64,000 bases of DNA from NCBI GenBank assembly GCA_903872075.1, contig CAIQJF010000004.1:94307-158306 (forward strand), written 5' to 3'. The notes under the pieces were generated by a model. It did no database searches. It had not been told where the DNA came from and was given only the letters and a program-made list of their open reading frames with translations. A program made the translations under genes and the position numbers. Positions 1 to 31,299 of this stretch are shown in pieces. The first letter of the stretch is position 1. Every line of letters begins with the position of its first letter. The DNA comes from an uncultured Caulobacteraceae bacterium. Its GTDB lineage: Bacteria > Pseudomonadota > Alphaproteobacteria > Caulobacterales > Caulobacteraceae.

Positions 1-6
1 GACACG

Positions 7-411: not shown

Positions 412-424
412 GCCCGACCGGGCT

Positions 425-715: not shown

Positions 716-800
716 GAATCTAGCCCCCCATTGGCGCGGCCGACGAGCCATGGCCGGACGTCCGACTCAGTCGACTGGATGCTGGAAACTTGGTCTGTCA

Positions 801-1166: not shown

Positions 1167-1476
1167 CGACGAGCTGTGTCTCGGCCACGGCGCGCAGTCT
1201 CTTTCCCGGCTTCATGGCATCTGAGCGGACAACGAGATCGACATCCCGGCCCAGGATCCGCGTCAGGGCGAATTGAATGCCCCCCACATCGAAGGCGCTG
1301 AACAGGGGCTTACGGCCGGTCGGACCCTCATCGAGATCGACCATCAGGTCGACATCACTGCGCGCGTTCGCGGTGTGTCTGGCGACGGAGCCGAACAGGA
1401 AGATGCGCCGAACGCCCAGGCGCTCCAGCTCCTGGCGATGCGCCTTCAGGCGGTCGATGACCTCGGCGGGCTCCAT
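1156..1476 (-). CDS. mntA: Minimal nucleotidyltransferase antitoxin (MntA-like)
   Basis: LFGSVAR...SDVDL = GS-x10-DxD motif, 106 aa, directly upstream of the HEPN gene. Confidence 0.85.
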   Translation of the reverse strand: MEPAEVIDRLKAHRQELERLGVRRIFLFGSVARHTANARSDVDLMVDLDEGPTGRKPLFSAFDVGGIQFALTRILGRDVDLVVRSDAMKPGKRLRAVAETQLVDVF

Positions 1477-1559
1477 AGCGTCAATCTAGCGCGTTTGGCC
1501 CCGGCGGGTAAGGCACACGGAGAGAACGGGCCGCTGGGCGAGCCGCATGAAGTCGTCCT

Positions 1560-2990: not shown

Positions 2991-2999
2991 CCGTCTCTC

Positions 3000-3656
3000 T
3001 CAGCGCCGGGTGTAGGCGTCGTTGGGGCCGGCGATCCTGGCCAGGGTCACCCGCAACCCGCCCATGTCGGGGCGGGTCCAGATCATGTGGCCCTCGGAGT
3101 CGAGGCGCCGGGTCACCTTCAGGCCGGGGAGGGTCAGGGCGAGCCCGGGGATGAGCGCCGGGCGAAGGACGAAGACGCCGCGCTCATAGCTGGCGATCAC
3201 ATGGATCGGCGTTTTGTAGTCGCGGTAGGACACATCGTGATCGCCGTGTTTGAGCGTTCCGTCGGCGCGGGCGTCGCAGATCGTCCCGCCGCCCATGTCC
3301 TCGATGCGGTCGCCGCACTGCTCGATGCGCTCGACATAGTCGTAGATGCGATCTCCTGCAGGCGCGGGCCGGCCGCCCCGCTCCGCGCGCAGGGTCTTCC
3401 AGACCCCGCGCAGGTCGGGCGCGCCTTTCACCAGGGGCTCGGCGCAGGCGGCCAGCACCGGCGGCGGGAAGCTTCGGCCATATCCACCCGGCGGCGTGTG
3501 GGCGATCGGGATGTCGTCGGCGGTGAGACCCGCACCACGGGCGACGCCATGTCCCGCCGCGGCGCGGTCCGCCGTCGGTCCGGCGGGCTCGCAACCGCAG
3601 AGCAAAACCGACAGCAACAGAACGGCGAGGCCGCGGCCGGCCCCCAAAGGCGTCAT
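3000..3656 (-). CDS. Putative lipoprotein of unknown function
   Basis: Hydrophobic leader ending in lipobox-like LLCGC; GC3-rich codon usage; 9-14 bp gaps to neighbours. Confidence 0.65.
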   Translation of the reverse strand: MTPLGAGRGLAVLLLSVLLCGCEPAGPTADRAAAGHGVARGAGLTADDIPIAHTPPGGYGRSFPPPVLAACAEPLVKGAPDLRGVWKTLRAERGGRPAPAGDRIYDYVERIEQCGDRIEDMGGGTICDARADGTLKHGDHDVSYRDYKTPIHVIASYERGVFVLRPALIPGLALTLPGLKVTRRLDSEGHMIWTRPDMGGLRVTLARIAGPNDAYTRR

Positions 3657-3670
3657 GGCGTTTTGCTCCG

Positions 3671-4534
3671 CTATGCCGCCAGCGCCGCTTCAGCGACCGG
3701 ATCTCCGGCGATGCGGCTGTGCCACATGACGCGGGGCAGGGTCATATCCCAGGGCAGGGCGCGGTGGAGGAGACAGCGGTTGTCCCAGACCACCACGTCG
3801 CCGGCGGTCCAGGCGTGCTGATAGACGCGCGGCGGGCGGCAGGCGAACGCGGTGAGGTCGTCCAGCAGGCGCTCGGACTCCGCCGGCGAGAGGCCGGGAA
3901 TGGCGTGGGCGTGACGGCCGATGAGCAGGGACTTGCGGCCGGTCTCGGGATGGACCTTGACCAGGGGCCTTAAGGGGACCGGGCCGTCGTGGAAGCCGTA
4001 GCCGCTGTAGTCGCCCTTCCCGGTCTTGGGGTCGTGACCAAGCTTGGCCTGGCTGTAGTAGAGCGAGTGATGGGCGCTCAGGCCCGCTATCCGCGCCTGA
4101 GTGGCGGGGTCGAGCGCGTCATAGGCGGCGCGCATATCGGCCCAGCCGGTCTCGCCGCCGGCGGGCGGGACGACCTCGGCGGAGAACACCGCCCCCTTGG
4201 CCTGGACGGGCATGTAGGTGCTGTCGGCGTGCCAGCCCATGTTGCCCTTGAGCACCTTGATCACATCGTCATTGCCCTCGGCCGGGCGGACCGAGCCGTC
4301 GGAGCGCACGTTGCTGATCGCGGCGAGATCGAACTCCATGGCTCCGAAGCGCTTGGCGAAGGCAATCTGGTCGGCGCGACTGAGATGCTGGCCCGGAAAC
4401 ACCAGCAGGGCGTGCTCCAGCCAGGCGCTGTAGAGCGCGCCCCAGGTCGCCGCGTCCAGATCGGCGAGGCGAAGGCCGGTGACCCTGGCGCCGAAACAGG
4501 CGTCGAGCGGCTCGAGGTCGAACAGGCGCGCCAT
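3671..4534 (-). CDS. TauD/TfdA family Fe(II)/2-oxoglutarate dioxygenase
   Basis: WHADSTY (HxD), GGETGWADM and WDNRCLLHRA motifs. Confidence 0.9.
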   Translation of the reverse strand: MARLFDLEPLDACFGARVTGLRLADLDAATWGALYSAWLEHALLVFPGQHLSRADQIAFAKRFGAMEFDLAAISNVRSDGSVRPAEGNDDVIKVLKGNMGWHADSTYMPVQAKGAVFSAEVVPPAGGETGWADMRAAYDALDPATQARIAGLSAHHSLYYSQAKLGHDPKTGKGDYSGYGFHDGPVPLRPLVKVHPETGRKSLLIGRHAHAIPGLSPAESERLLDDLTAFACRPPRVYQHAWTAGDVVVWDNRCLLHRALPWDMTLPRVMWHSRIAGDPVAEAALAA

Positions 4535-4569
4535 GGGGATCGCTCCCTTCCCTTATGTTTTGCCGGAGC

Positions 4570-6078
4570 CTAACCCGCCGCGGGGGCCGGCGTAAGCTTC
4601 TTGGCCGAGAAGGGTCCGAACGGCGTCATCAGGAACAGGCCGGTCACGGACCCGTCGGCGCCGCGCTGGAACACACCGGTCACCCCGATCGCGGCGATGA
4701 AGAAGGCGTTGTCGGAACTCGAGCGCGCCTCCACCGGGGCCGGGGCCAGGACGGGCAGGGTCACGAACAGGGCGCCGCCGGTGACGGTCACGGCCACACG
4801 GCCGAAGCCGGCGACCTCATAGGTTCCCGCGTCCGCGGCCAGGACGTCGGGGCGGACGGCGACCGGCGTCACCTCCATCTGCCGATAGGCGGGCCAGCCA
4901 TAGGCCTTGGCCACCGCCCGCTCGATCTCGGAGATCAGGCTCGATCCGCTGTCGCTGTTGGTCATGATGGCGACGCCCTGCCGCGTTCCGCCGGTGAAGG
5001 CGACGAAGTCGTTACGGAAGCCCTCATTGGCGCCGCCGTGGCCGAAGCGGGCGGCGCCATCGGTCATGACGTTCAGTCCCAGGCCCCAGGCGCCCTTGCC
5101 GGGGGTGAGCATGGTCCGGGCCATGTCCGGCGACAGGACGTTGTGCGAGGTCCCGGCCGCTTCGTTCTGCAGCTCGATGGCGAAGCGGGCGATGTCGGAA
5201 GGTGTGGTCCACAGGCCGGCGGCGGCCTGTTCGGGATAGACGTTCCAGCCGCCGAGCACCGGCTTGCCGCTCGCCCGGTAGCCGAGGGTCGCGCGGCCCT
5301 GCAGGGCTTCCGGCAGGGGCTGCTCATAGGTCGAGGCCTTCAGCCCGGCCGGATCGAGGACGGTCGCTTTCAGGATCGCGGCGAACGGCTGGCCGGTAGT
5401 CTCTTCCATCAACAGCTGGGCCGCGGTGTAGCCGCCGCCGGAATAGTCGAACTGGGCGCCGGGAACGTGGATCGAGACCACCGCGGGGCTGTTGGCCGGC
5501 TTCTGGCCGCTGAGCACCTGCGGCAGGGTCGCGCGGGGCGCGGTGCGATTGTAACCGACGAAGCCGTGCACGCTCAGGCCGGCGGTGTGGCTGAGCAGGC
5601 GGCGCAGGGTGACCTTCTCGGTGGCGGTCATCGGCCCGGCCGGGACCTGCCAGCCTTTCAGCCGCGTGTTGACGTCCTGATCGAGGTCGAGCCTGCCATC
5701 CTGAACCAGGCGCAGGGCGGCCATGGCGGCGAGGGGTTTGCTGATCGAGCCGGCCTGGAACAGGGTGTCCGGCGTCACCTGCGTCCCGCGCTCCACATCG
5801 GCCCGGCCGTAGGCGCGGGTCCAGACGATCCGGCCGTTCTCGAAGAAGGCGATGCTGACGCCGGGCACATGCAGGGCGGTCATGCGATCGGCGAGGGTCA
5901 GGACCGGCGCCGGCTCGCCCTTGACCAGGATCGCGGGCAGCAGCCCGGTCTCGATGGCCTTGATCTTCGCCGCATCGTCGGCCGACACCGCAGGTCCGGG
6001 GGCGGGCGCGGCGTGGGCCGGCGCGGTCAGGCTGAACAGCAAGGCCGCCCCGATCAGGGCCCGCGTGAACTGTCTCAT
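4570..6078 (-). CDS. Secreted serine hydrolase (beta-lactamase/AmpC-like fold) with C-terminal extension
   Basis: Signal peptide; FQAGSISK (SxxK), LLSHTAGL, YSGGGY and HGGANEGF motifs. Confidence 0.9.
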   Translation of the reverse strand: MRQFTRALIGAALLFSLTAPAHAAPAPGPAVSADDAAKIKAIETGLLPAILVKGEPAPVLTLADRMTALHVPGVSIAFFENGRIVWTRAYGRADVERGTQVTPDTLFQAGSISKPLAAMAALRLVQDGRLDLDQDVNTRLKGWQVPAGPMTATEKVTLRRLLSHTAGLSVHGFVGYNRTAPRATLPQVLSGQKPANSPAVVSIHVPGAQFDYSGGGYTAAQLLMEETTGQPFAAILKATVLDPAGLKASTYEQPLPEALQGRATLGYRASGKPVLGGWNVYPEQAAAGLWTTPSDIARFAIELQNEAAGTSHNVLSPDMARTMLTPGKGAWGLGLNVMTDGAARFGHGGANEGFRNDFVAFTGGTRQGVAIMTNSDSGSSLISEIERAVAKAYGWPAYRQMEVTPVAVRPDVLAADAGTYEVAGFGRVAVTVTGGALFVTLPVLAPAPVEARSSSDNAFFIAAIGVTGVFQRGADGSVTGLFLMTPFGPFSAKKLTPAPAAG

Positions 6079-6149
6079 CCGTCATCCTCCCCAACGGCGC
6101 CGCACTGCACAACTTGTGAACAGACGCCCCCTGCCCTATTCCAGCGGCC

Positions 6150-7361
6150 ATGTCCCCCAAGGCCGAGCCTTCCTCGTCCCGGCGCTCCGCCTGGGCACTC
6201 TACACCCTGTTGTCGGTGACCTTCATCAACATCCTGGGGTTCGGGATCGTCGTGCCGCTGCTGCCGTTCTACGGCGCCTCGTTCCACGCCCAGCCCTGGC
6301 AGATGGGCCTCATCTTCTCGGCCTACCCCATCGGCTCCTTCTTCGGCGAGCCGTTCTGGGGGCGGCTGTCGGACCGCATCGGTCGCAAGCCGATCCTGGT
6401 CTTCACCACCCTGGCCAACTGCCTGTGCTACGGCGCCCTGGCCTTCGCCCCGAACATCTGGTTCGCCTTCTTCATTCGCCTGGCCGGTGGCCTGGGGGCC
6501 GGCAACGGCTCGGTGGTGCAGGGCTATATCGCCGACGTCACCGCCCCGGAGGACCGGGCCAGCCGCATGGCCACCCTGGGCGCGGCCTATAATATCGGCT
6601 TCATCCTGGGCCCGGTGGCGGGCGGCTTCCTGGCCAAGCCTTCGGCCGGGACCCTGGGATTTCAGATCCCGCTGCTGGCCGCCTCGGTGCTGGCCGCCTG
6701 TTCGGCGGCGGGCATCGCCCTGATCGTCAAGGAGACCCGCAAGGTGCGCGAGGTGGACCCCAATCCGCCGTCGCGCTGGGCGATGATCTCCTATGCGGTG
6801 AACCATCCGGTGATCGGGCGGCTGATGCTGCTGACCTTCGTGGTCGGCTTCGCTTTCAACGGCATCGAGTCGGTGTTCGGCCTGTGGGCGCAGCATCGCT
6901 ATCACTGGCAACCGAGGGACGTGGGCCTGTGCTTCGGCATCGCCGGGCTGATCTCCTCGCCGACCCAGTTCCTTTTGACCGGGGCCCTGTCCCGCAAGTT
7001 CGGCGAGGCGCGGATGCTGGCGGTGGGAATGGTGGGGACGGCGATCGCCATGGGGCTGCAGCCGTTCGGCGACGGGGGCTGGACCACCTACGCCTGCATG
7101 GCCATGACCGCGCTCTGCTCGTCCGTGGCCTTCCCCAACGCCGGGGCGCTGATGTCGCGCAGCATCGATGAGAACCACCAGGGTCAGATCATGGGCCTGA
7201 ACAACGCCACCGGCGCCTTCGCCCGGGTGGCCGGGCCGCAGGTGGCTAATCTGATGTTCGCCCTGGTGAGCGTGGATGGGCCCTATTTCCTGGGGGCGCT
7301 GATCGTGGCGCCGGCGATCCTGCTGGCCCTGGCGGCCGGGCGGGCGGCGGCAAGGGTTTAG
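6150..7361 (+). CDS. MFS transporter (TetA/DHA1-like)
   Basis: About 12 hydrophobic segments; GRLSDRIGRKP motif A. Confidence 0.9.
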   Translation: MSPKAEPSSSRRSAWALYTLLSVTFINILGFGIVVPLLPFYGASFHAQPWQMGLIFSAYPIGSFFGEPFWGRLSDRIGRKPILVFTTLANCLCYGALAFAPNIWFAFFIRLAGGLGAGNGSVVQGYIADVTAPEDRASRMATLGAAYNIGFILGPVAGGFLAKPSAGTLGFQIPLLAASVLAACSAAGIALIVKETRKVREVDPNPPSRWAMISYAVNHPVIGRLMLLTFVVGFAFNGIESVFGLWAQHRYHWQPRDVGLCFGIAGLISSPTQFLLTGALSRKFGEARMLAVGMVGTAIAMGLQPFGDGGWTTYACMAMTALCSSVAFPNAGALMSRSIDENHQGQIMGLNNATGAFARVAGPQVANLMFALVSVDGPYFLGALIVAPAILLALAAGRAAARV

Positions 7362-7379
7362 GCAGGAGGGGCGTGGCTT

Positions 7380-7484
7380 GCGCCCCCTCCGGCGCTTCGC
7401 GCCACCTCCCCCGCTTCGCAGGGGAGGAGAACATTCCTCCTCCCCCGTAAAACGGGGGAGGTCCCCGAAGGGGGGAGGGGGCGC
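7380..7484. repeat. REP-like palindromic element, two units in inverted orientation
   Basis: Bounded by GCGCCCCCTCC/GGAGGGGGCGC; each unit has a small hairpin plus a CTCCCCCG-loop-GGGGAGGAG hairpin. Confidence 0.85.
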
Positions 7485-7541
7485 TCGGACATCCACCCGG
7501 CCCAGCCCATTGATCGGCGCGGCGCTTCCGGCCTAGTGTTT

Positions 7542-7555
7542 TAGAACACGTTCTC
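7542..7555. promoter_or_regulatory. Dyad TAGAAC-AC-GTTCTC, putative TetR-family operator
   Basis: AGAAC/GTTCT inverted repeat in the AT-rich stretch about 50 bp upstream of the acyl-CoA synthetase start. Confidence 0.4.
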
Positions 7556-7601
7556 ATTTTTGGTGAGGACCAACGACACCGGGAAACACCAGGAGCGATC
7601 C

Positions 7602-9281
7602 ATGCCTTCGCGCGCCGAGATCATCGCGGGCCTGACGGCCGCGGGCCCGTTTGAACTGGCCACCGACCATTCCGCCGGCCATCCGCTGCGCGTCTATCGC
7701 CACGCCCCGGCCTCGTTCCGGCATGTCTTCGAAGGCACGCGCGGCCACGGGGAGAAGACCTTCGCCATCTATGGCGATGAGACCCTCAGCTACGACGGCC
7801 ACTACGCCCAGGTGGCGGCCCTGGCCCATCACCTGATCGAGCGCGGCGTGAAGAAGGGCGACCGGGTCGCCATCGGCATGCGCAACTACCCGGAGTGGAG
7901 CGTCAGCTTCTGGGCCTGCCAGTCGATCGGCGCGATCGTGGTGGCGCTGAACGCCTGGTGGACGACCACCGAACTCACCTACGCCCTGGACGATTCCGCC
8001 CCCGCCGCCCTGCTGATTGACGGCGAGCGGCTGGAGCGGCTACGCGGCCTGTTGAACCGCCAGGGTCTGAAGACCGTGGTGGTGGTGCGCCGCGGCGAGG
8101 CGGGCGAGGGCGGCGTGGACTTCGCCGAGGTCGTGGCCGGGCCGCCGCGCGAGCTGCCCGCAGCGGACGTGGGGCCGAACGACCTGGCGACGATCCTCTA
8201 CACCTCCGGCACCACGGGCAATCCGAAGGGGGCCATGGCCACCCATCGCAACCATGTGACCAATCTGATGAACACCCTGCTGGCCGGGGCGGTGGCGCGG
8301 GAGCTGGCCGGGCTGCCGGCCGAGGCCGATCCCAATGCGCCGCAGAGCGGGGTGCTGCAGACCTTCCCCTTCTTCCACATCGGCGGGCTGACCGGGCTCT
8401 ACCTCAGCGTCGCCACCGGGGCGAAGGTGGCGATGATGTACAAATGGGTCCCGCCGGAAGCGGTGAAGCTGATCCAGCAGCATGGGCTGTCCAGCGTCTC
8501 GGGCGTGCCGATCGTGGTGCGCCAGCTGCTGGAGACCGCCCACGCCATGGGCGAGGACATGAGTTCGCTGGTCGGGGTGACCTCCGGCGGGGCGCCGGTG
8601 CCGCCCGACCTGATCCGGCGGATCGGCGATCAGTTCCAGGCCAAGGCCGCGCCCGGCAACGGCTATGGCCTGACTGAGACCACCAGCGCCGTCATCACCA
8701 ACGGCGGCGCCGACTATCTGGCCCGCCCGGACAGCATCGGCCGGGCGGTGGTCACCGCCGATGTGCGCATCGTCGACGACAATGGCGTGGACGTCGCCCA
8801 GGGCCAGATCGGCGAGCTTTGGATCCGCGGATCCAACGTCATCCCCGGCTACTGGAACAATCCCGAGGCCACCGAGGCGGCCTTCGGCGGCGGCTGGTTC
8901 CGCACCGGCGATCTCGGCTACGTCGATACGGAGGGCTTCCACTTCGTGGTCGACCGCAAGAAGGACGTGATCATCCGCGGCGGCGAGAACGTCTATTGCG
9001 CCGAAGTGGAGGCCGCCCTGCTGGAGCATCCCAAGGTCCGCGACGTGGGCCTGATCGGCCTGCCGCATCCCGAGCTCGGCGAGGAGGTGGCGGCGGTGAT
9101 CCAGGTCGATGCGGCCAACGACACACCCGGCACGGCCGATGAGCTGCGCGCGGCGCTGGCCGAGAAGCTGGCGCGGTTCAAGATCCCGACGTCGATCCGG
9201 TTGACGACCGGGGAGTTGCCGCGGACGGCGACGGGGAAATTGCTGAAGCGGGAGCTTAGGAGCGGGTATTTTACGGCTTAG
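7602..9281 (+). CDS. Long-chain acyl-CoA synthetase (AMP-binding)
   Basis: ATG 7602 after AGGAG; YTSGTTGNPKG, GYGLTET and FRTGDLG motifs. Confidence 0.9.
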   Translation: MPSRAEIIAGLTAAGPFELATDHSAGHPLRVYRHAPASFRHVFEGTRGHGEKTFAIYGDETLSYDGHYAQVAALAHHLIERGVKKGDRVAIGMRNYPEWSVSFWACQSIGAIVVALNAWWTTTELTYALDDSAPAALLIDGERLERLRGLLNRQGLKTVVVVRRGEAGEGGVDFAEVVAGPPRELPAADVGPNDLATILYTSGTTGNPKGAMATHRNHVTNLMNTLLAGAVARELAGLPAEADPNAPQSGVLQTFPFFHIGGLTGLYLSVATGAKVAMMYKWVPPEAVKLIQQHGLSSVSGVPIVVRQLLETAHAMGEDMSSLVGVTSGGAPVPPDLIRRIGDQFQAKAAPGNGYGLTETTSAVITNGGADYLARPDSIGRAVVTADVRIVDDNGVDVAQGQIGELWIRGSNVIPGYWNNPEATEAAFGGGWFRTGDLGYVDTEGFHFVVDRKKDVIIRGGENVYCAEVEAALLEHPKVRDVGLIGLPHPELGEEVAAVIQVDAANDTPGTADELRAALAEKLARFKIPTSIRLTTGELPRTATGKLLKRELRSGYFTA

Positions 9282-9299
9282 GCGCCCGGCGCGTCCCTA

Positions 9300-9409
9300 G
9301 CGCCCCCTCCACCACCTTCGGTGGTCCCCCTCCCCCGTTTGACGGGGGAGGAGATCATTCCTCCTCCCCTGCGTTGGGGGGGTGGTGGCGCGAAGCGCCG
9401 GCGGGGGCG
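9300..9409. repeat. REP-like palindromic element, two inverted units
   Basis: Same architecture as 7380-7484 with hairpin ACCACC-TTC-GGTGGT. Confidence 0.85.
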
Positions 9410-9493
9410 TCTCCTCCCCTTCCCTCATCTTATATCGCGTTATAGAGTTCGCTTCGGCCACGCGGGCGGCGATCCCCGGGCCGGGAGGATGCG

Positions 9494-11047
9494 ATGCTGC
9501 TGAGCGATGTGCCTGAACTCGCCGCGCACCATGCGCCGGACGTGGCGGCGATCATTTTTCAGGACGAGACGATCACCTATGCGCAGCTGCGCGACCGCTG
9601 CCGGCGGCTGGCCAACGCCCTGATCGCGGTGACGCAACCGGGCGACCGGGTGGCGATCCTGGCCGAGAACTGTCCGGAATATGTGGACTGCTACTACGGC
9701 GTACCAGGCGCCGGCCTGGCCCTGACCCTGCTGAACTATCGCCTGGCGCCGCGCGAGCTGGCCTACATCATCGGCAACGCCGAGCCGCGGATCCTGATCG
9801 TCGAAGCGAAATACCTGCCGGCGATCCGGCAGATTCGCGCGCAGATTCCCTCGGTGGAACGGATCCTGCTGATCGACGGCGAGAGCGAGGGCACGGAATC
9901 CTACGCCGCCTTCCGAGACTCGGGCGCGGCGACCGAGCCGAGCCGCCGGCCGCAGGAGAGCGATCTCGCCTGGCTGCTCTACACCTCCGGCACCACGGGC
10001 CTGCCCAAGGGGGCGATGCTGAGCCACACCAATCTGCTTGCGGGGATCATGAACTCCATGGCCGCCTGGGACACCGGGCCGGACGAGGTGTGCATGTTCA
10101 CCTTCCCGATGTTCCATGTGGCCGGCTACGTCATGCCCATGCAGCATCTGCGCACCTTCCCGGTGGTGCTGCTGCGCAGTTTCGATCCGCCGACCCTGCT
10201 GGCCACGGTGCAGAAATACCGGGTGACCAACACCGCCATGGCCCCGACCATGGTGGGGATGCTGCTGGAGAACCCGGAGACGGCGAACTACGACCTCAGC
10301 TCCCTACGGCGGCTGGGTTATGGGGCGGCGGCCATGCCGGGCGAGGTGCTGCGCAAGGCGCGGGCGCGCTGGCCGGGGGCGGGGTTCTCGACCGGATTCG
10401 GCATGACCGAGCTGAGCGGCAACGTCATGACCATGGGCCGGCAGGACCACGACCGGGCGGCCGACGAGGGGCTGGAGATCCTGCGCTCGGTGGGCAAGCA
10501 GATGCCGCTGGCGCGGGTGCGGGTCGCAGACGAGAGCGGGGCCGACTGCCCGCCCGGCCAGGCCGGCGAAATCATCGTCAAGGGCGATCAGGTGCTGAGC
10601 GGCTATTGGCGCAATCCGGAGGCCACGGCCGCGAGTTTCACCGACGGCTGGTTCCACACCGGCGACGTGGGGCGGTGGGACGCCGAGGGCTATCTCTATA
10701 TCGTCGACCGCAAGAAGGACATGATCCTGACCGGCGGCGAGAACGTCTATCCGCGCGAGGTGGAGGAGGTGCTGTTTCGCCATCCGGCCGTGATGGAGGC
10801 CGCCGTGGTCGGGGCGCCGGACGAAAAATGGGGCGAGATGGTCGCCGCGGTGATCTGCGTGCGCGAGGGCCATACGGTGACGGGCGCGGAGATCACCGCC
10901 TTCTGCCGGGAGGAGATCGCCGGCTACAAGCGCCCGCGGCGGCTGGCCTTCATCAAGGAACTGCCCAAGAACGCCTCGGGCAAGGTGCTCAAGCGCGAGC
11001 TGCGCGATCTGATCGCGGCGGGAACCCTGCCGCTGGAGGTTCTGTGA
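9494..11047 (+). CDS. Acyl-CoA synthetase (AMP-binding; LvaE-like position)
   Basis: YTSGTTGLPKG, GFGMTE and FHTGDVG motifs; TGATG overlap with the next gene. Confidence 0.9.
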   Translation: MLLSDVPELAAHHAPDVAAIIFQDETITYAQLRDRCRRLANALIAVTQPGDRVAILAENCPEYVDCYYGVPGAGLALTLLNYRLAPRELAYIIGNAEPRILIVEAKYLPAIRQIRAQIPSVERILLIDGESEGTESYAAFRDSGAATEPSRRPQESDLAWLLYTSGTTGLPKGAMLSHTNLLAGIMNSMAAWDTGPDEVCMFTFPMFHVAGYVMPMQHLRTFPVVLLRSFDPPTLLATVQKYRVTNTAMAPTMVGMLLENPETANYDLSSLRRLGYGAAAMPGEVLRKARARWPGAGFSTGFGMTELSGNVMTMGRQDHDRAADEGLEILRSVGKQMPLARVRVADESGADCPPGQAGEIIVKGDQVLSGYWRNPEATAASFTDGWFHTGDVGRWDAEGYLYIVDRKKDMILTGGENVYPREVEEVLFRHPAVMEAAVVGAPDEKWGEMVAAVICVREGHTVTGAEITAFCREEIAGYKRPRRLAFIKELPKNASGKVLKRELRDLIAAGTLPLEVL

Positions 11048-12063
11048 TGGGCGCCGGCCCGGCCCAGACCTTCGAAACCGCCTTAGGCGCCTGCATCGCC
11101 CGCCGGTTCGGCCCGGACGCCAAGGTGGCGCGGCTGGAGCGGCTGTCGGGCGGGGCGAGCCAGGAGCTTTGGGCATTCGACGTGGAGAGCCCCGAGGGAA
11201 CGCGCGAGCTGATCCTGCGCCGCAACCCCGGCGGCACGGTGAAGCGCGAGAACGCCGCCGGCATGGAGACCGAGGCGCGGCTGATCGAACTGGCCCGGGC
11301 GACAGGGACGCCGGTTCCCGAGGTGGTGCATGTTTTCAGCCCCGAGGAGGGTCTGGGCTCGGGCTTCCTGATGACGCGGATTCCCGGCGAGACCCTGGCC
11401 CGGCGGATCCTGCGCGACGATCTCTATGCCAGGGCGCGGCCGGTTCTGGCCCATCAGATGGGCGCGGCGGCGGCGCTGATCCACCGGATCGATCCGGCCA
11501 AGGCCGGGCCGCTGCGCGTCTCCACCGTGGAGAGCAGCCTGGACGGGGCCTATGCGCTCTACAAGGCCAATGGCGGGCGCCGGCCGGTGATCGAATGGGC
11601 GTTCCGCTGGCTGCGCGAGAACCGCCCGGCGACCGAGGCGACGCCGACGGTGGTGCATGGCGACATGCGCACCGGCAATATCATCGTGGGACCTGAGGGC
11701 CTGCGCGCGGTGCTGGACTGGGAGGTCGTGCACCTGGGCGATCCGATCTACGACCTGGGGTGGATCTGCACCCCGTCGTGGCGGTTCGGCGAGATCGACA
11801 AGCCGGCTGGGGGGTTCGGCTCCCGCGAGGACCTGTGGGCCGGCTATGAATCGGTGACCGGCGTTCCCGTGGACCGCCAGAGGGCCCGGTTCTGGGAAGT
11901 GATGAGCACCCTGCGCTGGGGCCTGAGCTGCGCGATGATGGCGCGCGAGTTCCAGGCCGGCGAGCGCAGCGTGGAGAAGGCCGCCATCGGCCGGCGGGCC
12001 TCGGAGGTGGAGGTCGACCTGTTGGCCATGCTGGCCGCGCCCGGAGGACAGCCCCTTGTATGA
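11047..12063 (+). CDS. lvaA: APH-family phosphotransferase, LvaA-like 4-hydroxyacyl-CoA kinase subunit
   Basis: ATG 11047; RLSGGASQELW, HGDMRTGN, LDWE and GDPIYDLGW motifs; followed by a small LvaB-like gene and an ACAD as in the P. putida lva operon. Confidence 0.7.
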   Translation: MGAGPAQTFETALGACIARRFGPDAKVARLERLSGGASQELWAFDVESPEGTRELILRRNPGGTVKRENAAGMETEARLIELARATGTPVPEVVHVFSPEEGLGSGFLMTRIPGETLARRILRDDLYARARPVLAHQMGAAAALIHRIDPAKAGPLRVSTVESSLDGAYALYKANGGRRPVIEWAFRWLRENRPATEATPTVVHGDMRTGNIIVGPEGLRAVLDWEVVHLGDPIYDLGWICTPSWRFGEIDKPAGGFGSREDLWAGYESVTGVPVDRQRARFWEVMSTLRWGLSCAMMAREFQAGERSVEKAAIGRRASEVEVDLLAMLAAPGGQPLV

Positions 12064-12568
12064 TCAGCCGACCGCCCGCGAGCTCATCGACGCCGTGCAG
12101 GGGTTTCTGCGCGACGAGGTTTCGCCGACCTTGAGCGGGCGGCTGGCCTTTCACGCCCGCGTGGCGGTGAATGTTCTGGAGACGGTGAAGCGGGAGCTGG
12201 AGCTGGGGCCGGGCGCCGTGGCCGGCGAGGGGGCGCGACTGGCGGCGTTGCTGGGGCGCGAGTTCCAGGCCGGCGAGCGCAGCGTGGAGAAGGCCGCCAT
12301 CGGCCGGCGGGCCTCGGAGGTGGAAGTCGACCTGCTGGCCATGCTGGTCGCGCCCGGAGGACAGCCCCTTGTATGATCAGCCGACAGCCCGCGAACTCAT
12401 CGACGCCGTGCAGGGGTTTCTGCGCGACGAGGTTTCGCCGACCCTGAGCGGACGCCTGGCCTTTCACGCCCGGGTGGCGGTGAATGTGCTGGAGACGGTG
12501 AAACGCGAGCTGGAGCTGGGGCCGGACGCCGTGGCCGGCGAGGGGGCGCGGCTGGCGGCGTTGCTGGG
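11943..12568 (+). repeat. 313-bp tandem duplication (11943-12255 / 12256-12568)
   Basis: Collinear copies with 14 substitutions counted by eye; GCGCGAG / GCGGGAG microhomology at the junctions. Confidence 0.95.
12056..12376 (+). CDS. Chimeric ORF: N-terminal part of the LvaB-like protein fused to the C-terminal helix of the LvaA-like protein
   Basis: MYDQPTARE...LAALLG|REFQAGERSVEKAAIG...GGQPLV, created by the duplication. Confidence 0.7.
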   Translation: MYDQPTARELIDAVQGFLRDEVSPTLSGRLAFHARVAVNVLETVKRELELGPGAVAGEGARLAALLGREFQAGERSVEKAAIGRRASEVEVDLLAMLVAPGGQPLV

Positions 12569-12755
12569 GCGGGAGGGACCTCTGGCTGAGCTGGAAGAGG
12601 CGTTGTGTGAGGCGATCGCGTCCGGGGATGTGGATCCGGGCGATCCGGCGCTGATCGATCATCTTTGGAAGACCACCCTCGATACCCTGGCGGTGGATCA
12701 GCCGGGGTATGCGACGTATCGGCGGGCGGCGGGTGTTTTCAAGGATGGGGAATGA
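12369..12755 (+). CDS. lvaB: Small LvaB-like (DUF6285) partner protein
   Basis: TTG start overlapping the upstream stop; QPTARELIDAV...EGARLAALLG...LAVDQPGY pattern. Confidence 0.7.
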   Translation: MYDQPTARELIDAVQGFLRDEVSPTLSGRLAFHARVAVNVLETVKRELELGPDAVAGEGARLAALLGREGPLAELEEALCEAIASGDVDPGDPALIDHLWKTTLDTLAVDQPGYATYRRAAGVFKDGE

Positions 12756-12771
12756 GCGCGCCCTGCGCCTT

Positions 12772-12954
12772 GCGCCCCCTCCACCGCCTTCGGCGGTCCC
12801 CCTCCCCCGTTGCACGGGGGAGGAGAAAGAAGCGGGAGCGCCCCCTCCGACCCTTTGGGCCACCTCCCCCGTTTTACGGGGGAGGAGAATATGGGCCTTC
12901 CTCCTCCCTTGCGCGGAGCGCGGGGGAGGTGGCGCGAAGCGCCGGAGGGGGCGC
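12772..12954. repeat. REP-like palindromic element, three units (two direct, one inverted)
   Basis: GCGCCCCCTCC starts at 12772 and 12838; GGAGGGGGCGC ends at 12954. Confidence 0.85.
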
Positions 12955-13012
12955 TTGGCCGCGCCGCCCCCCCCACCCTCACATCTGACCTGACCTGAAG
13001 AGGACCCCCGCC

Positions 13013-14338
13013 ATGGATTTCAATCTGCCCCCCGAGCTGACGGCCTATCTGGCCGAGCTGGATCAGTTCATCGCCGATGAGATCAAGCCGCTGGAGGCGG
13101 AGAACGACAATATCCGTTTCTTCGACCACCGCCGCGAATGGGCGCGGACGGATTTCGACAATGACGGCCTGCCCCGGCCCGAGTGGGAGGCGTTGCTGCG
13201 CGAGGCCAAGAAACGGGCCGACAAGGCCGGGCATTTCCGGTTCTGCCTGCCGGAGGAGTTCGGCGGCAAGAACGGCTCGAACCTGTGGATGACGGTGATC
13301 CGCGAGCACCTGGCGGCCAAGGGGCTGGGGCTGCACTATGACCAGCAGACCGAGCACGCCATCGTGGGCAACCACCCCTTCATCGTCATGTTCCGCGACT
13401 TCGGCACGCAGGACCAGAAGGACGAGTTCATCAACGGCATATTGGAGGGCCACCGGCGGGTGACCTTCGGCCTGACCGAGCCCTATCACGGCTCGGACGC
13501 CACCCACATGGAGACCCGCGCCGTGCCGGAAACCCGTAACGGCACGCCGGGCTTCCTGATCAACGGCGAGAAGATGTGGACCAGCGGCATGCACCACGCC
13601 ACCCACGTGGGCCTGTTCTGCCGCACCGAGGGCAAGGACGGCGACGCCAAGGGGATCACCTGCCTGCTCGTGCCGGCCCGCGACGAGGGGGTGAAGATCG
13701 AGCAGTATCTGTGGACCTTCAACATGCCGACGGACCATCCGCGGGTGAGCTTCAGCGATGTGTGGGTGCCGGAGACGGCGATGTTCGGCCCGCCGGGCGG
13801 GGGCCTGCCCCTGGCCCAGAGCTTCGTGCATGAGAACCGCATCCGTCAGGCGGCCGGATCGCTGGGCTCGGCGGTCTATTGCATCGAGCAGAGCGTGAAA
13901 TACGCCCGGGCCCGCAAGCCCTTCGGCCAGCCCCTGAGCGATAACCAGGCCATCCAGTGGCCGCTGGTGGAGCTGGCGACGCAGGTGGAGATGCTGCGCC
14001 TGTTGATCCGCAAGACGGCCTGGGAAATGGACCAGATGCCCCACCCGGAGGTGGAGAAGCGGATCAGCGACAAGGTGTCGATGTGCAACTATTGGTCGAA
14101 CCGGCTGTGCTGCGAGGCGGCGGACCGGGCCATGCAGGTGCACGGCGGCATCGGCTATTCGCGGCACAAGGCGTTCGAGCACATCTATCGCCACCACCGC
14201 CGTTACCGGATCACCGAGGGCAGCGAAGAGATCCAGATGCGCAAGGTGGCGGCCTTCCTGTTCGGCTATATGGGCCCGCGCAAGAAGGAGCTGTCGGCGA
14301 TCACCTGGGATGACGTGGACTATCGCAAGGGGCGGTGA
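13013..14338 (+). CDS. Acyl-CoA dehydrogenase family protein (LvaC/ACAD11-like context)
   Basis: FGLTEPYHGSD, INGEKMW, AMQVHGGIG and YRITEGSEE motifs. Confidence 0.9.
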   Translation: MDFNLPPELTAYLAELDQFIADEIKPLEAENDNIRFFDHRREWARTDFDNDGLPRPEWEALLREAKKRADKAGHFRFCLPEEFGGKNGSNLWMTVIREHLAAKGLGLHYDQQTEHAIVGNHPFIVMFRDFGTQDQKDEFINGILEGHRRVTFGLTEPYHGSDATHMETRAVPETRNGTPGFLINGEKMWTSGMHHATHVGLFCRTEGKDGDAKGITCLLVPARDEGVKIEQYLWTFNMPTDHPRVSFSDVWVPETAMFGPPGGGLPLAQSFVHENRIRQAAGSLGSAVYCIEQSVKYARARKPFGQPLSDNQAIQWPLVELATQVEMLRLLIRKTAWEMDQMPHPEVEKRISDKVSMCNYWSNRLCCEAADRAMQVHGGIGYSRHKAFEHIYRHHRRYRITEGSEEIQMRKVAAFLFGYMGPRKKELSAITWDDVDYRKGR

Positions 14339-28500: not shown

Positions 28501-28722
28501 TCAGACCGAACCCTGACCAGCCGCCGCCGGAAACCCCAGCGCCTTCCGCAGCGCCGCGAGCTGGTCGCTGGAGACGGTGTCGAGACGTTCCATCTGGGTG
28601 TCGTAGGCGGCGAAAATGGCTTCGCGGTCGGCGGGGTGGGCGGCGCGGACGGCGGCTTCGAGGTTTTCATAAACCTCGGCGGCGGTGGCCAGGGCGGCGG
28701 GGAAGCGGGAGAACTCGACCAT
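28501..28722 (-). pseudogene. 3' fragment (or short ORF) of an unidentified helical protein
   Basis: Strong GC3 codon bias from ATG 28722 to the stop; upstream sequence is the antisense of the esterase fragment. Confidence 0.45.
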
Positions 28723-28726
28723 GGCC

Positions 28727-29593
28727 GGGGCGTCGGCCAGCGGGATGTCGGTGAACCGCCTGATGATGATGGATGAGGCCAAGGGCATGTTCATCCGGGC
28801 GATCGTGGAATCCGGCGTCGGCCATGAGCGCGGCCAGACGCTGGCCGAGGCGGAGGCCGACGGGCAGGGCTTTGCCGCAAAGCTTGGAGTCACCGGAACC
28901 GATGCCGCGGCCCTCCGCGCCATCCCGGCCGACCAGATCGTCGCCGCGGGCGATCCCGACATCTTCAAGGGCGAACTGCCGATCCTCGACGGGCGGGTGC
29001 TGACCGAGAACGCCGACGCGGCGTTCAAGGCCGGCCGCACGATGAAGATCCCCTATCTGGCGGGGTCCAACAGCCTGGAGATTCCAGCGGCGTTCCTGGG
29101 TCCGCGGCGCGAGGCGATGCTGACTTTCCCGGCGCCGCGGAAGGCGGCGATCGTGGCGGCCTATGGCGGCGAGGCGGTGTTCGCCGAGCACGCCGGGGCG
29201 GATCTGATCTTCGGCGAGCCGGCCCGGGCCCTGGCGCGGGATCAGGCCCGGCATGGGGCGCCGACGTATCTCTATCGGTTTTCGGTGCTGTCGGCGGCCG
29301 CCCCGAAAATCCTGAAAGGCGCGCCGCACGCCTCGGACCGGCAGTATGTGTTCCAAACCCTGAACGCCTCGCCCTGGCCCACCGACGCCCGCGACGCGGC
29401 CCTGGCCAAGACGATCAGCGCCTATTGGGTCGCCTTCGCGAAGACCGGTGACCCCAACGGCCCAGGCCGCCCGGTCTGGCCGCGCTATGACGGCAAGGAC
29501 AAGCTGCTCAACTTCACCAACGACGGGCCGGTAGCGATGACAACACCGGACGCCGCGGCGCTGGACGCGCTGGCGGCGGCGGCGGCGCACTGA
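28727..29593 (+). pseudogene. Type-B carboxylesterase lacking its N-terminal part
   Basis: Begins at the nucleophile elbow (SASGMSV, normally GESAG); AIVESG, GSNSLE and GAPHASD retained; about 290 aa versus about 500 typical. Confidence 0.8.
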
Positions 29594-29605: not shown

Positions 29606-30169
29606 CTAGCCGTCCGCGCGTCTGCGCTCCGGAATTAGCACCTCGCCAGGAAGTTTGAAATTGGGGGTGTCGAAGGTCAGCGGTTTGCCGAGGCCCTTCA
29701 CGCCGATCTTCTCGCTGGCCTTGTAGCCACCCGTGGCGATGCGGCTGACGCGGCCGCGTTCAAGCGTCAGTTCCACGCCTGTGATGTCCAGCAGCAGGGT
29801 CACCTCGAAGGTGACCGTCAGGGTGACCGCCTCCAGGACGATGTCGATCGTCGGGTGGCTGACGTGCTCAAAGGCGAGCTTGAAGATCGGGACAACGCGG
29901 GGCGTTTCAGGCCCTGCGGACGCGCCTTCCCCGTCCTTCGCGGCGCCCGTGGCCCTGTCGCAAGCGGCGACAATCAGCCCACCCACCGGCACGGTCAGGG
30001 TGGCGTCGATGGCGCCCGGCAGCCGTTCGGCGACCACGGTCCAGACCGCCTTTTCGAAAGCCGGCGCCGCGCGCCGCAAGGCGGCGATCAGGCGTTTGCG
30101 GTTCTCCGGCCGGCGGAGGGCGCGACGCTCGCGCAGCGCGCTGTCGAGGACCGAGACGGGGTCAGACAT
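29606..30169 (-). CDS. Hypothetical cytoplasmic protein coupled to the PASTA gene
   Basis: Start overlaps the PASTA gene stop; helical N-half, beta-rich C-half (HVSHPTIDIVL...FEVTLLLDITG). Confidence 0.75.
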   Translation of the reverse strand: MSDPVSVLDSALRERRALRRPENRKRLIAALRRAAPAFEKAVWTVVAERLPGAIDATLTVPVGGLIVAACDRATGAAKDGEGASAGPETPRVVPIFKLAFEHVSHPTIDIVLEAVTLTVTFEVTLLLDITGVELTLERGRVSRIATGGYKASEKIGVKGLGKPLTFDTPNFKLPGEVLIPERRRADG

Positions 30170-31136
30170 CGCGGGGTTCCGATTTGGCGGTGAGCTGGCA
30201 GACGACGCGGGACGCGCCCGGATCCGGATGTGGGGCTATCGCCAGGCCGGCGCGAATCCGCGTCAGGCGCCGGGCCCGCGCGCGGGCCTGCATGACCGTA
30301 CCGCCGCCAGCCACGAAGAGCGCAGCGCCCAACGCCAAGGCCCAGATCGCCCAGGGCGGTGGTGGTGGTGGATCAGCCAGGGTGGCGACGACCAGCGAGT
30401 TCGCGAGCATCGGCGTTTCGGGAGGCGGGTCCTGGTCGACCACTTTGGCCGCGGCATCCGTAGGCCCAACAAATCTCACCCGCAGCCCCGCGTTCGAAGC
30501 CGCCACCTCGGCCGCGCCAGCGTTCAGGCCGCGCAGCGACGGCGCCGCAACGGGCGGCTTAGGCGGGTCCGTCATGTACAAGGTAACGCCCCCAACCTCC
30601 GGGACAGGCGAATCCGGGGGCGGGTTCTGGGTGTCGACATGCGCGTCGACGTCGGTCGGACCGCTGAATTGTAGCGTGATATGCGTGCCCTGAGCCTTCT
30701 GGACAGCGTCGCTCACGGTCAAGCCATGGAACGCGGGAATCATTTCCGGCGGAGGTGGCGGAGTCGTATCGGACGTCGACAGTATGACGATCCGACCTTT
30801 GCCCACTTGCTGGCCAGGCTGCAAATCCTGGTCGACGACCCGGGCCGCGTCATCCATCGGACCCACGAACTGAAGCCTGAGATGAGCAATCTCGGCCATC
30901 TGTTTGGCCATGTCCAAAGTGGCACCGTTGAACAGGGGAACGTCGACGAGGGCGTCAGCTGGTGGGTTGGCTTTCGGCGCGATCGGTTGTGTCGGGACCG
31001 GCTTCTGGGCGGCCCACCACTTGGCGGGATTGAAGGTCTGTGCTGTGGTTGCCCACCCCGCAGAGCCGAGGATGCAGAGCATCGCGAGGCCAAGCACGCT
31101 GCGCCGTGCGGGTCGGACCCTGTCGAAGATCGTCAA
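30162..31136 (-). CDS. Membrane-anchored protein with three PASTA-like repeats
   Basis: Three repeats of (V/I)P-x(2-3)-G-x-(T/N)-x3-A...L-x-F-x-GP-x4-A-x-V-x2-Q-x-P-x-P separated by Pro linkers; signal peptide; C-terminal TM. Confidence 0.8.
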   Translation of the reverse strand: MTIFDRVRPARRSVLGLAMLCILGSAGWATTAQTFNPAKWWAAQKPVPTQPIAPKANPPADALVDVPLFNGATLDMAKQMAEIAHLRLQFVGPMDDAARVVDQDLQPGQQVGKGRIVILSTSDTTPPPPPEMIPAFHGLTVSDAVQKAQGTHITLQFSGPTDVDAHVDTQNPPPDSPVPEVGGVTLYMTDPPKPPVAAPSLRGLNAGAAEVAASNAGLRVRFVGPTDAAAKVVDQDPPPETPMLANSLVVATLADPPPPPPWAIWALALGAALFVAGGGTVMQARARARRLTRIRAGLAIAPHPDPGASRVVCQLTAKSEPRDV

Positions 31137-31275
31137 GGTTGCCCCCTCGACGCAATGCCCGCGCGTTATCTCCGAGTGGTTTCGGAGGCTTCAACAGCAG
31201 GTGAGCCTGCGAAGGCTGTCACAACTCCTAGACCACGTCAAATATTCGGGATCTTCACGAGTTCGCTTGCGGTGA

Positions 31276-31299
31276 TCGCGCGGCCCGAAGGCCGCGCGA
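31276..31299 (-). terminator. 10-bp stem hairpin downstream of the TonB-dependent receptor
   Basis: TCGCGCGGCC-CGAA-GGCCGCGCGA; no clear U-tract. Confidence 0.4.

What the first reader, a model, noticed from the sequence alone, without database searches (positions are those of the whole stretch)
29606..31136. Kinase-less triple-PASTA membrane protein translationally coupled to an unknown cytoplasmic partner
Seen: signal peptide, three PASTA-like repeats, TM helix and a short basic cytoplasmic tail (APHPDPG), with the stop overlapping the start of a 187-aa alpha/beta protein. The module is slightly lower in GC and sits between a pseudogene and a TBDR. Established: PASTA domains bind muropeptides, lipid II or beta-lactams and are typical of Gram-positive Ser/Thr kinases and PBPs. 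Inference: a two-component envelope-sensing or conflict module in a diderm, with topology reversed relative to PknB/StkP (PASTA N-terminal, C-tail inside) and an uncharacterised output protein.
Basis: partly seen in the sequence, partly recalled or inferred. Interest (0 to 1): 0.62.

Follow-up and report, generated by a model that had tools for sequence, protein, structure and literature searches.

The report
Wall-binding membrane protein with unknown partner
Two overlapping genes encode a membrane protein that carries three cell-wall-binding PASTA domains outside the cell and a small cytoplasmic protein of an unannotated family; the pair recurs in many bacteria, which points to an undescribed, kinase-free link between the cell envelope and the cytoplasm whose function is untested.

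Summary
Window 30162-31136 (-) encodes signal peptide, 3 PASTA domains (Pfam 54.9 bits, cut-off 23.2), a TM helix and a 41-aa basic tail. Its stop overlaps (ATGTCTGA) the start of a 187-aa gene at 29606-30169 (-).

The partner is a real gene (GC3 0.85). It belongs to a small family (41 clusters among 1.84 billion representatives) with no Pfam, NCBIfam, PHROGs or PDB match and no significant structural neighbour.

In all ~24 loci examined, the partner directly follows a secreted single-pass membrane protein, usually with overlapping stop and start. The outside domain of that protein varies: PASTA, PKD, DUF11, CARDB, PG_binding_1-like or a coiled coil. Fusions (PASTA-TM-tail-partner, partner-TM-PEGA, partner-FHA) support a functional link and a cytoplasmic location.

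Some relatives sit at the end of contractile-injection-system (eCIS) loci. This genome has no eCIS marker, and most members stand alone.

Best reading: a mobile, kinase-less trans-envelope adaptor or sensor whose output is protein recruitment. Function is untested, and tail-partner binding is inferred, not shown. A sequence look-up found this partner family nowhere else in the scan.

The parts
31137..31243 (-). Conserved leader/promoter region of the module. It begins at ATTTGACG; a GAGGGGG Shine-Dalgarno lies 5 nt before the TTG start.
   Evidence: Homology with the only close relative (L001, different upstream gene) starts exactly here, and the sequences upstream are unrelated. The sigma-70 consensus scan finds nothing. 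No Rfam family reaches its gathering score.
30162..31136 (-). Gene for the bitopic PASTA protein, 324 aa.
   Evidence: ORF. Pfam PASTA 54.9 bits. dN/dS 0.35 against the 76%-identical L001 orthologue.
31044..31136 (-). Signal peptide (aa 1-31: basic n-region RVRPARR, hydrophobic core 13-32, GWA|TT).
   Evidence: Kyte-Doolittle window analysis. The cleavage site is inferred.
30768..30947 (-). PASTA repeat 1 (aa 64-123).
   Evidence: Best Pfam stretch, protein 64-122 against profile 1-63 of 64.
30567..30743 (-). PASTA repeat 2 (aa 132-190).
   Evidence: One of the three Pfam stretches. Repeat alignment.
30372..30548 (-). PASTA repeat 3 (aa 197-255), the most constrained part (dN/dS 0.16).
   Evidence: A 44-nt DNA-level repeat links it to repeat 1 (D1).
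30285..30353 (-). Transmembrane helix (aa 262-284), preceded by PPPPPP.
30165..30284 (-). Basic cytoplasmic tail (aa 285-324) carrying family motif 1 (GLAIAPHPDPGASRVV). It lacks the second motif present in longer relatives.
   Evidence: Tail alignment of 20 upstream proteins with unrelated ectodomains. dN/dS 0.25.
30162..30169 (-). Stop/start overlap ATGTCTGA (translational coupling).
   Evidence: The same or an equivalent overlap is seen in L001, L011, L012, L013, L014, L015, L019, L026, L032, L054 and L055.
29606..30169 (-). Partner gene, 187 aa, of an unannotated family.
   Evidence: GC3 0.85 and GC2 0.50. 41 homologous clusters. AF2 pLDDT 86.6. No Pfam, NCBIfam, PHROGs or PDB match. The only PADLOC match is a weak ZorF hit in this one member.
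29936..30169 (-). Partner N-terminal four-helix domain (aa 1-78).
29636..29899 (-). Partner C-terminal long-stranded, amphipathic beta-sheet (aa 91-178). It carries the family motifs around H105-P106, T146-G147 and L173-P174-G175.

Best explanation
This is a self-contained, horizontally mobile two-gene module. Gene 1 makes a Sec-exported, single-pass inner-membrane protein. Its periplasmic part is three PASTA (peptidoglycan/muropeptide-binding) domains, and its short basic cytoplasmic tail carries a motif shared by the whole family. Gene 2 is made by coupled translation, so presumably in matching amounts. It encodes a ~190-aa cytoplasmic protein of an undescribed family: a four-helix domain followed by a long-stranded beta-sheet, with no invariant polar residues and therefore probably no enzyme activity. 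I infer that the partner binds the tail. The pair would then act as a kinase-less trans-envelope adaptor or sensor: the ectodomain fixes or clusters the complex according to the state or position of the cell wall, and the output is recruitment or oligomerisation of the partner, with further proteins joining in some lineages (for example through a fused FHA domain). Shown: the gene structure, the domains, the conservation of the pair and of the coupling, the fusions, the interchangeable ectodomains, and purifying selection. Inferred: tail-partner binding, ligand binding, and any downstream effect.
For: PASTA is above the Pfam cut-off, and the topology follows from the hydropathy and charge analysis. 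The partner is a real gene family. In every locus examined the partner directly follows a signal-peptide/TM protein. The stop and start overlap by 4-14 nt in most of them (window, L001, G016, G093, G076, G334, G801, L014, L015, L026, L054, L055) and by 29 nt in L052. L028 (14 nt) and L053 (24 nt) have short gaps. In G132 there is a gap of about 480 nt, and the end of the upstream ORF is unclear. Three fusions link the parts: P0008 is PASTAx4-TM-tail-partner in one chain, P0019 is partner-TM-PEGA, and the G334 partner carries a C-terminal FHA domain. All three place the partner domain in the cytoplasm. The ectodomains differ (PASTA, PASTA+PKD, PKD, DUF11, CARDB, PG_binding_1-like, Ala-rich coil), while the TM helix and the tail motifs persist. 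Only P106, G147 and P174 are nearly invariant in the partner, so no catalytic signature exists. dN/dS is 0.35 overall and 0.25 in the tail. The module carries its own conserved leader and has a different upstream neighbour in L001.
Against: No experiment or multimer model shows that the tail and the partner touch. In the AF2 model of the natural fusion, the tail region stays at pLDDT < 50. The window's tail is the shortest in the family and lacks motif 2. No downstream target is identifiable, and the FHA fusion is a single case. The fusion P0008 could be an assembly frameshift, although the same contig stands in three sources.
Confidence: 0.5

Rival explanations
1. It is an accessory of extracellular contractile injection systems (eCIS). 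The membrane protein plus partner would tether or position the phage-tail-like particle at the envelope, or license its firing or release, as CisA does for the Streptomyces CIS. The copy in this window would be an orphan left without its machine.
For: In G016, G093 and the P0008 contig (L051), the pair lies between the DUF6519 (eBAP5) tail-fibre gene and the eCIS_core-domain effectors of complete eCIS loci with sheath, tube, Pvc16_N, AAA+ and baseplate genes. In G132, a different family with a different ectodomain, the pair lies about 9 kb beyond the eCIS fibre gene. [quoted passage not shown] DUF6519 is described as a fibre/baseplate-attachment domain in PMC12923769.
Against: This genome (93% complete) has no eCIS_core, DUF6519 or Pvc16_N match. 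G076, G334 and G801 lack Pvc16_N, and L026, L028, L053, L054 and L055 show no eCIS gene within 10 kb. In the genus, 11 of 78 genomes carry the partner, 12 of 78 carry Pvc16_N, and only 3 carry both (Fisher p = 0.22). The three adjacent cases are close relatives and may reflect one event. The gene here is under purifying selection, which does not fit a decaying orphan.
Confidence: 0.15
2. It is a wall-damage-triggered lysis or suicide switch. The partner would be a cytoplasmic beta-hairpin pore-former, held or activated by the wall-sensing receptor, that permeabilises the inner membrane. That could serve abortive infection or the release of eCIS particles.
For: The partner has very long, strictly amphipathic strands (VTLTVTFEVTLLLDITGVELTLE, with a Thr/Glu face). 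The top non-PASTA Foldseek hits for both models are pore forms of gasdermins, RCD-1, MAC and CDC proteins. A patatin gene and a PemK toxin lie upstream in L026. eCIS release generally requires lysis (general knowledge).
Against: None of those structural hits is significant (E >= 0.03, TM <= 0.23, probability <= 0.21). An amphipathic sheet is equally expected for a sheet packed on helices. There is no PADLOC or PHROGs family; the one ZorF hit occurs in 1 of 39 members at E = 7e-4. Many contexts are housekeeping genes.
Confidence: 0.12
3. It is a structural envelope protein with a dedicated assembly or chaperone partner, for example a cell-wall-anchored spacer or polarity landmark. In that case there is no signalling and no conflict role.
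For: The ectodomains are adhesin- or wall-binding-type repeats (PASTA, PKD, DUF11, CARDB, coiled coil). Many contexts are housekeeping genes. No regulator is linked.
Against: Distribution is sporadic (2 of 400 sampled class genomes and 2 of 400 sampled phylum genomes, excluding this one; 11 of 78 in the genus, including this one). The atypical GC and the different neighbours in close relatives point to an accessory, mobile gene pair. The FHA fusion suggests signalling.
Confidence: 0.13

Closest known systems
PASTA Hanks-type Ser/Thr kinases (M. tuberculosis PknB, B. subtilis PrkC, S. pneumoniae StkP, S. aureus Stk1)
   Same: Both are single-pass membrane proteins with tandem extracytoplasmic PASTA domains and a cytoplasmic output. 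A relative's repeats superpose on Stk1 and PknB PASTA structures (Foldseek E 6e-9).
   Different: There is no kinase domain. The topology is reversed: signal peptide, PASTA, TM, C-terminal tail inside. The output is a separate, apparently non-enzymatic protein of an unannotated family. The host is a diderm alphaproteobacterium (other Caulobacterales/Caulobacteraceae genomes carry relatives). Across the family, PASTA can be replaced by other domains.
CisA, membrane adaptor of the Streptomyces coelicolor contractile injection system (PMC12237407)
   Same: Both are bitopic membrane proteins with an extracytoplasmic folded domain. In three related loci the pair is encoded in the distal part of an eCIS cluster. 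It could act as a membrane adaptor in the same way.
   Different: CisA has its N-terminus inside and its C-terminus outside, a substrate-binding-protein-like ectodomain and no separate partner. I did not test sequence homology. This genome has no eCIS marker, and most family members are not eCIS-linked.
T6SS threonine-phosphorylation pathway (PpkA / Fha1 / TagQRST of P. aeruginosa) - from my own knowledge, not tested here
   Same: The concept is shared: an envelope-facing bitopic receptor controls a contractile machine post-translationally through an FHA-domain protein. One family member (G334) fuses the partner to an FHA domain.
   Different: No kinase, phosphatase or T6SS genes are linked here. 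The FHA domain is present in one lineage only.
TM-anchored PASTA/PEGA/OmpA effectors of iSTAND (vWA-MoxR) ternary conflict systems (Kaur et al. 2020, PMC7159879)
   Same: Both are peptidoglycan-associating domains behind a TM segment in Gram-negative, sporadically distributed systems.
   Different: Those systems are defined by vWA, MoxR and iSTAND NTPase genes. None of these is adjacent here or in any related locus examined.

Membership tests
PASTA domain (Pfam PF03793) | HMM score above the curated gathering threshold | tested here: met
   54.9 bits against a 23.2 cut-off, three stretches, best stretch covering profile 1-63 of 64. It is the only PASTA locus in this genome.
PASTA domain (Pfam PF03793) | Compact alpha+beta PASTA fold of about 60-70 residues | tested here: inconclusive
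   I did not fold the window protein itself. In the homologous fusion P0008, three of the four PASTA repeats fold confidently (pLDDT 86-96; the region of the fourth is below 50), and the model matches Stk1, PknB and PBP2x PASTA structures (E 6e-9 to 1e-4).
PASTA Hanks Ser/Thr kinases (PknB/PrkC/StkP) | Cytoplasmic N-terminal Hanks kinase domain | tested here: not met
   No Pkinase hit in either protein. The N-terminus is a signal peptide.
PASTA Hanks Ser/Thr kinases (PknB/PrkC/StkP) | N-in/C-out topology with C-terminal PASTA repeats | tested here: not met
   The PASTA repeats follow the signal peptide. The TM helix is at aa 262-284 and a basic tail is at the C-terminus.
Class B PBPs with PASTA (PBP2x type) | Transpeptidase domain preceding the PASTA repeats | tested here: not met
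   Pfam and NCBIfam show no transpeptidase or PBP dimerisation domain.
CisA-type CIS membrane adaptor | Encoded inside a contractile-injection-system gene cluster | tested here: not met
   This genome has no eCIS_core, DUF6519 or Pvc16_N match. The feature is met only in the relatives G016, G093 and L051.
CisA-type CIS membrane adaptor | Sequence homology to SCO4242 and its topology (N-in, periplasmic C-terminal domain) | not tested
   No CisA sequence was on hand. By description the topology is the opposite.
iSTAND / vWA-MoxR ternary conflict systems | Adjacent vWA, MoxR AAA+ and iSTAND NTPase genes | tested here: not met
   The neighbours are a TBDR, a COesterase fragment and a DUF938 gene. 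No such genes appear in the ten related loci with called neighbours.
Gasdermin-like / beta-hairpin pore-forming proteins | Significant structural or sequence similarity to a pore-forming fold | tested here: not met
   The best hit is the GSDME pore at E 0.034, TM 0.16, probability 0.20. No hit has E <= 0.001 in PDB or BFVD.
Zorya ZorF (PADLOC PDLC00653, DUF2894) | The family-wide profile matches, and Zorya genes lie nearby | tested here: not met
   Only 1 of 39 family members matches, at E 7e-4 over the Arg/Ala-rich helices. No Zor genes are adjacent.

The most novel reading that the evidence does not exclude
The constant core (TM helix, cytoplasmic hairpin tail and the ~190-aa helix-plus-long-beta-sheet partner) is a new type of trans-envelope switch. 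Clustering of an interchangeable surface-binding ectodomain would drive the partner to oligomerise at the inner membrane, possibly as a membrane-inserting beta-hairpin assembly that kills or lyses the cell. Contractile injection system loci would have co-opted this switch for particle release or firing.
Probability: 0.12. Interest if true: 0.85.

Novelty: new variant of a known kind. Interest (0 to 1): 0.6.

Why it matters
PASTA domains are known as the sensor part of wall-sensing kinases and of penicillin-binding proteins, mostly in Gram-positive bacteria. Here they feed neither. In a two-membrane bacterium they are wired to a small cytoplasmic protein that no database describes. The same cytoplasmic core is also combined with PKD, DUF11, CARDB, PEGA and wall-binding domains elsewhere. 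That points to a general, kinase-free way of connecting the outside of the inner membrane to the cytoplasm. It also gives a concrete, testable candidate for the missing membrane adaptor or release factor of some alphaproteobacterial contractile injection systems. The partner family is small, well alignable and folds confidently, so it is ready for structural and genetic work.

Tried and rejected
(1) A spurious partner ORF is rejected: GC3 is 0.85, there are 41 homologous clusters, and the AF2 model is confident.

(2) Word-index homology searches were nearly blind. They returned only the query itself and one 76% orthologue, and six proteins with the profile. The index-free search was needed.

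(3) The search for related loci failed twice because no stretch was conserved enough. With the subfamily alignment it returned only the two known genomes.

(4) Annotation of the partner failed in Pfam, NCBIfam, PHROGs and PDB sequences, and in Foldseek against PDB and BFVD. PADLOC gave only one weak ZorF hit, in 1 of 39 members. The levivirus maturation-protein and gasdermin-pore hits are not significant.

(5) I folded the natural fusion P0008 to see whether the tail docks on the partner. The tail stayed disordered (pLDDT < 50), so the result is inconclusive.

(6) An obligate eCIS link is rejected: this genome has no eCIS marker, and the genus-level overlap is not significant.

(7) There is no recurrent third gene: neighbours differ in every lineage.

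(8) There are no flanking terminal repeats around the module, no Rfam element and no sigma-70 consensus promoter.

(9) The empty-site test failed. The best TBDR orthologue (G017) is followed by unrelated sequence, but its contig ends after 230 nt.

(11) Literature searches for PASTA with contractile injection or eCIS found nothing relevant.
Full report
**What is in the sequence**

- On the minus strand, 30162-31136 encodes a 324-aa protein and 29606-30169 a 187-aa protein.
- The first gene starts at a TTG that lies 5 nt after GAGGGGG. Its TGA stop overlaps the partner's ATG in the string ATGTCTGA.
- Pfam scores the first protein as PASTA at 54.9 bits (gathering cut-off 23.2), in three stretches. 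The three ~60-aa repeats share 19-22 identical residues pairwise, and repeats 1 and 3 are still recognisable as a 44-nt DNA repeat.
- Hydropathy analysis finds two hydrophobic segments. Residues 13-32 follow the basic stretch RVRPARR and form a signal peptide. Residues 262-284 follow a PPPPPP stretch and form a TM helix. A 41-aa tail follows, with 9 K+R against 3 D+E.
- GC falls to 0.62-0.69 across the module, against 0.71-0.74 around it. GC3 is 0.76 and 0.85, against about 0.88-0.90 in the neighbours.
- The flanks are a carboxylesterase fragment that matches only the C-terminal part of the Pfam model, and a Plug+barrel TonB-dependent receptor.

**The partner is a real protein of an unannotated family**

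- Its codon-position GC (0.70/0.50/0.85) is that of a coding frame.
- The word-index search saw nothing but the protein itself.
- The index-free search of 1.84 billion representatives found 41 clusters at E <= 1e-3. Nearly all are 140-220 aa long.
- They align along their full length with shared motifs: PLAxHxxxSxHHP, FDxxLxLxxxGxxLxIxxGRIxxIxTGxxxG and FxLPG. Only P106, G147 and P174 are nearly invariant, so I see no catalytic signature.
- With this alignment AlphaFold2 gives pLDDT 86.6 and pTM 0.76. The model has four helices (aa 4-78) followed by a sheet with very long strands (aa 91-178).
- Pfam, NCBIfam, PHROGs and PDB sequences give no match for the family.
- The single PADLOC hit (ZorF, E 7e-4) occurs in 1 of 39 members and lies over Arg/Ala-rich helices. 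I regard it as chance.
- Foldseek finds nothing at E <= 0.001 in PDB or BFVD. The best hits are pore forms of gasdermins and levivirus maturation proteins at TM about 0.2.

**The pair is conserved; the ectodomain is not**

- The only close orthologue of the PASTA gene is P0003 (76-77% identity), on a 1.5-kb metagenome contig. It keeps the same ATGTCTGA junction and the first 19 partner codons (1 nt different), but it lies behind an ABC ATPase gene instead of a TBDR.
- Homology between the two loci starts exactly at ATTTGACG, 107 nt upstream of the start codon. The unit therefore carries its own leader and spans 29606-31243.
- dN/dS between the two PASTA genes is 0.35 overall, 0.16 in PASTA3 and 0.25 in the tail. 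The gene is maintained by selection.
- In every other locus I could read, a partner homologue directly follows a gene for a secreted single-pass membrane protein. In most, the stop and start overlap.

| Locus | Upstream protein | Junction or note |
|---|---|---|
| G016 | PASTA | ATGA overlap |
| G093 | 4 PASTA | ATGA overlap |
| G076 | Ala-rich coiled coil | GTGA overlap |
| G334 | 6 PASTA | partner fused to an FHA domain |
| G801 | wall-binding/Ig-like | ATGA overlap |
| G132 | PG_binding_1-like | gap of about 480 nt; end of upstream ORF unclear |
| L026 | PASTA, 772 aa | 11-nt overlap |
| L028 | PASTA | 14-nt gap |
| L052 | PASTA+PKD | 29-nt overlap |
| L053 | PKD | 24-nt gap |
| L054 | PASTA | ATGA overlap |
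| L055 | CARDB | ATGA overlap |
| G066, G089, G092, G024 | DUF11-type | upstream frame ends at or near the partner start |
| G073, G087 | PASTA-like by eye | not scanned against Pfam |
| L014, L015, two contigs without DNA | truncated | overlapping upstream gene visible |

- The constant part lies after the TM helix. There is a basic stretch, then motif 1 (h.h.P..D.G....). In longer tails a second motif follows (P.h.hR....G).
- The window protein and its orthologue have motif 1 only.
- Three natural fusions tie the parts together and place the partner domain in the cytoplasm:
  - P0008 is PASTAx4-TM-tail-partner in one chain.
  - P0019 is partner-TM-PEGA.
  - The G334 partner has a C-terminal FHA domain.

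**Distribution**

- The family is rare and patchy.
  - Class sample: 2 of 400 other genomes.
  - Phylum sample: 2 of 400 other genomes.
  - These two counts are likely underestimates, because only 8 candidates per genome were scored.
  - Genus, searched with the profile: 11 of 78 genomes, this one included.
- This genome has only this one PASTA locus.

**The contractile-injection-system lead**

- In G016, G093 and the P0008 contig, the pair lies between the DUF6519 tail-fibre gene and eCIS_core-domain effector genes. PMC12923769 calls DUF6519 eBAP5.
- These are complete eCIS loci with sheath, tube, Pvc16_N, AAA+, spike, PAAR and baseplate genes.
- In G132, a different family with a different ectodomain, the pair lies about 9 kb beyond the eCIS fibre gene, with an RND pump operon between them.
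- This recalls CisA, the bitopic adaptor encoded after the baseplate genes of the Streptomyces CIS (PMC12237407).
- However, this genome (93% complete) has no eCIS_core, DUF6519 or Pvc16_N match.
- G076, G334 and G801 lack Pvc16_N as well. L026, L028, L053, L054 and L055 sit among unrelated or housekeeping genes.
- In the genus, the overlap between partner-bearing genomes (11) and eCIS-bearing genomes (12) is 3, giving Fisher p = 0.22.
- I conclude that some eCIS loci have recruited the module, or that it hitch-hikes in their variable end. It is not an eCIS component by definition.

**Mechanism**

- The data best fit a kinase-less trans-envelope adaptor or sensor.
- An interchangeable extracytoplasmic binding domain (here PASTA, so presumably peptidoglycan or muropeptides) is joined through one TM helix to a conserved tail.
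- The tail is the likely docking site for the co-translated partner.
- With no catalytic residues, the partner's output would be recruitment or oligomerisation. In one lineage this could run through an FHA domain.
- The docking itself is not shown. In the AF2 model of the natural fusion, the PASTA and partner domains are confident, but the tail (residues 375-443) stays below pLDDT 50.
- That model's PASTA part matches Stk1, PknB and PBP2x PASTA structures (E 6e-9 to 1e-4).
- The rivals are an eCIS adaptor, a lysis or pore switch, and a structural envelope protein with a chaperone. Each is scored separately.
- The pore idea rests only on the long amphipathic strands and on non-significant pore-form hits.

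**Comparison, novelty and limits**

- It works somewhat like a PASTA kinase with the kinase replaced by a separate adaptor protein, but it fails that family's defining tests: there is no kinase and the topology is reversed.
- It is not a PBP. It is not an iSTAND/vWA-MoxR system (PMC7159879), because none of the defining neighbours is present.
- I found no paper that links PASTA proteins with contractile injection systems, and no annotation for the partner other than 'hypothetical protein'.
- Earlier notes of this scan describe other kinase-less PASTA proteins: MacB-linked ones, and one in Gemmatimonadota at the PrkC position. A sequence look-up found this partner family only in this window.
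- Limits:
  - There is no multimer modelling.
  - There is no AlphaFold DB search.
  - Most related loci come from metagenomes of unknown taxonomy.

Noticed in passing
L011 (G016) 1-12648 with L024; L012 with L023 (G093); L051: Three related loci carry complete eCIS (phage-tail-like injection) clusters; the two with a record title are Caulobacterales/Caulobacteraceae MAGs. Each has a DUF6519 (eBAP5) fibre gene and two or more eCIS_core-domain effector genes, one fused to Het-C and one to DUF3750. In the genus, 12 of 78 genomes carry the eCIS marker Pvc16_N.
   Followed up: partly
L019 (G334) 9387-10310 (-): A partner-family domain is fused to a C-terminal FHA (phosphothreonine-binding) domain, downstream of a six-PASTA membrane protein. 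This is the only hint of a link to Ser/Thr phospho-signalling.
   Followed up: partly
window 31276-31299: A GC-rich hairpin (TCGCGCGGCC-TTCG-GGCCGCGCGA) without a T-run lies directly after the TBDR stop codon and just upstream of where the module's conserved leader begins. It probably marks the end of the TBDR transcript and the insertion boundary.
   Followed up: no
window 28685-29593 (+): The carboxylesterase frame matches only the C-terminal part of the Pfam COesterase model (best stretch profile 387-499 of 515). Its stop lies 12 nt from the partner's stop, convergent.
   Followed up: partly
L026 3997-5163 and 2353-2927: In one metagenome contig, the PASTA/partner pair is preceded by a patatin-like phospholipase gene and a PemK toxin-antitoxin pair. 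This could be a defence-island-like context, but it was seen in only one lineage.
   Followed up: no
L020 (G132) 10658-13152 (-): The upstream ORF of the G132 pair ends in an Arg/Ser/Pro-rich stretch that looks out of frame, and a 149-aa ORF fills the gap to the partner. This is either a frameshift in the assembly or a split gene.
   Followed up: no
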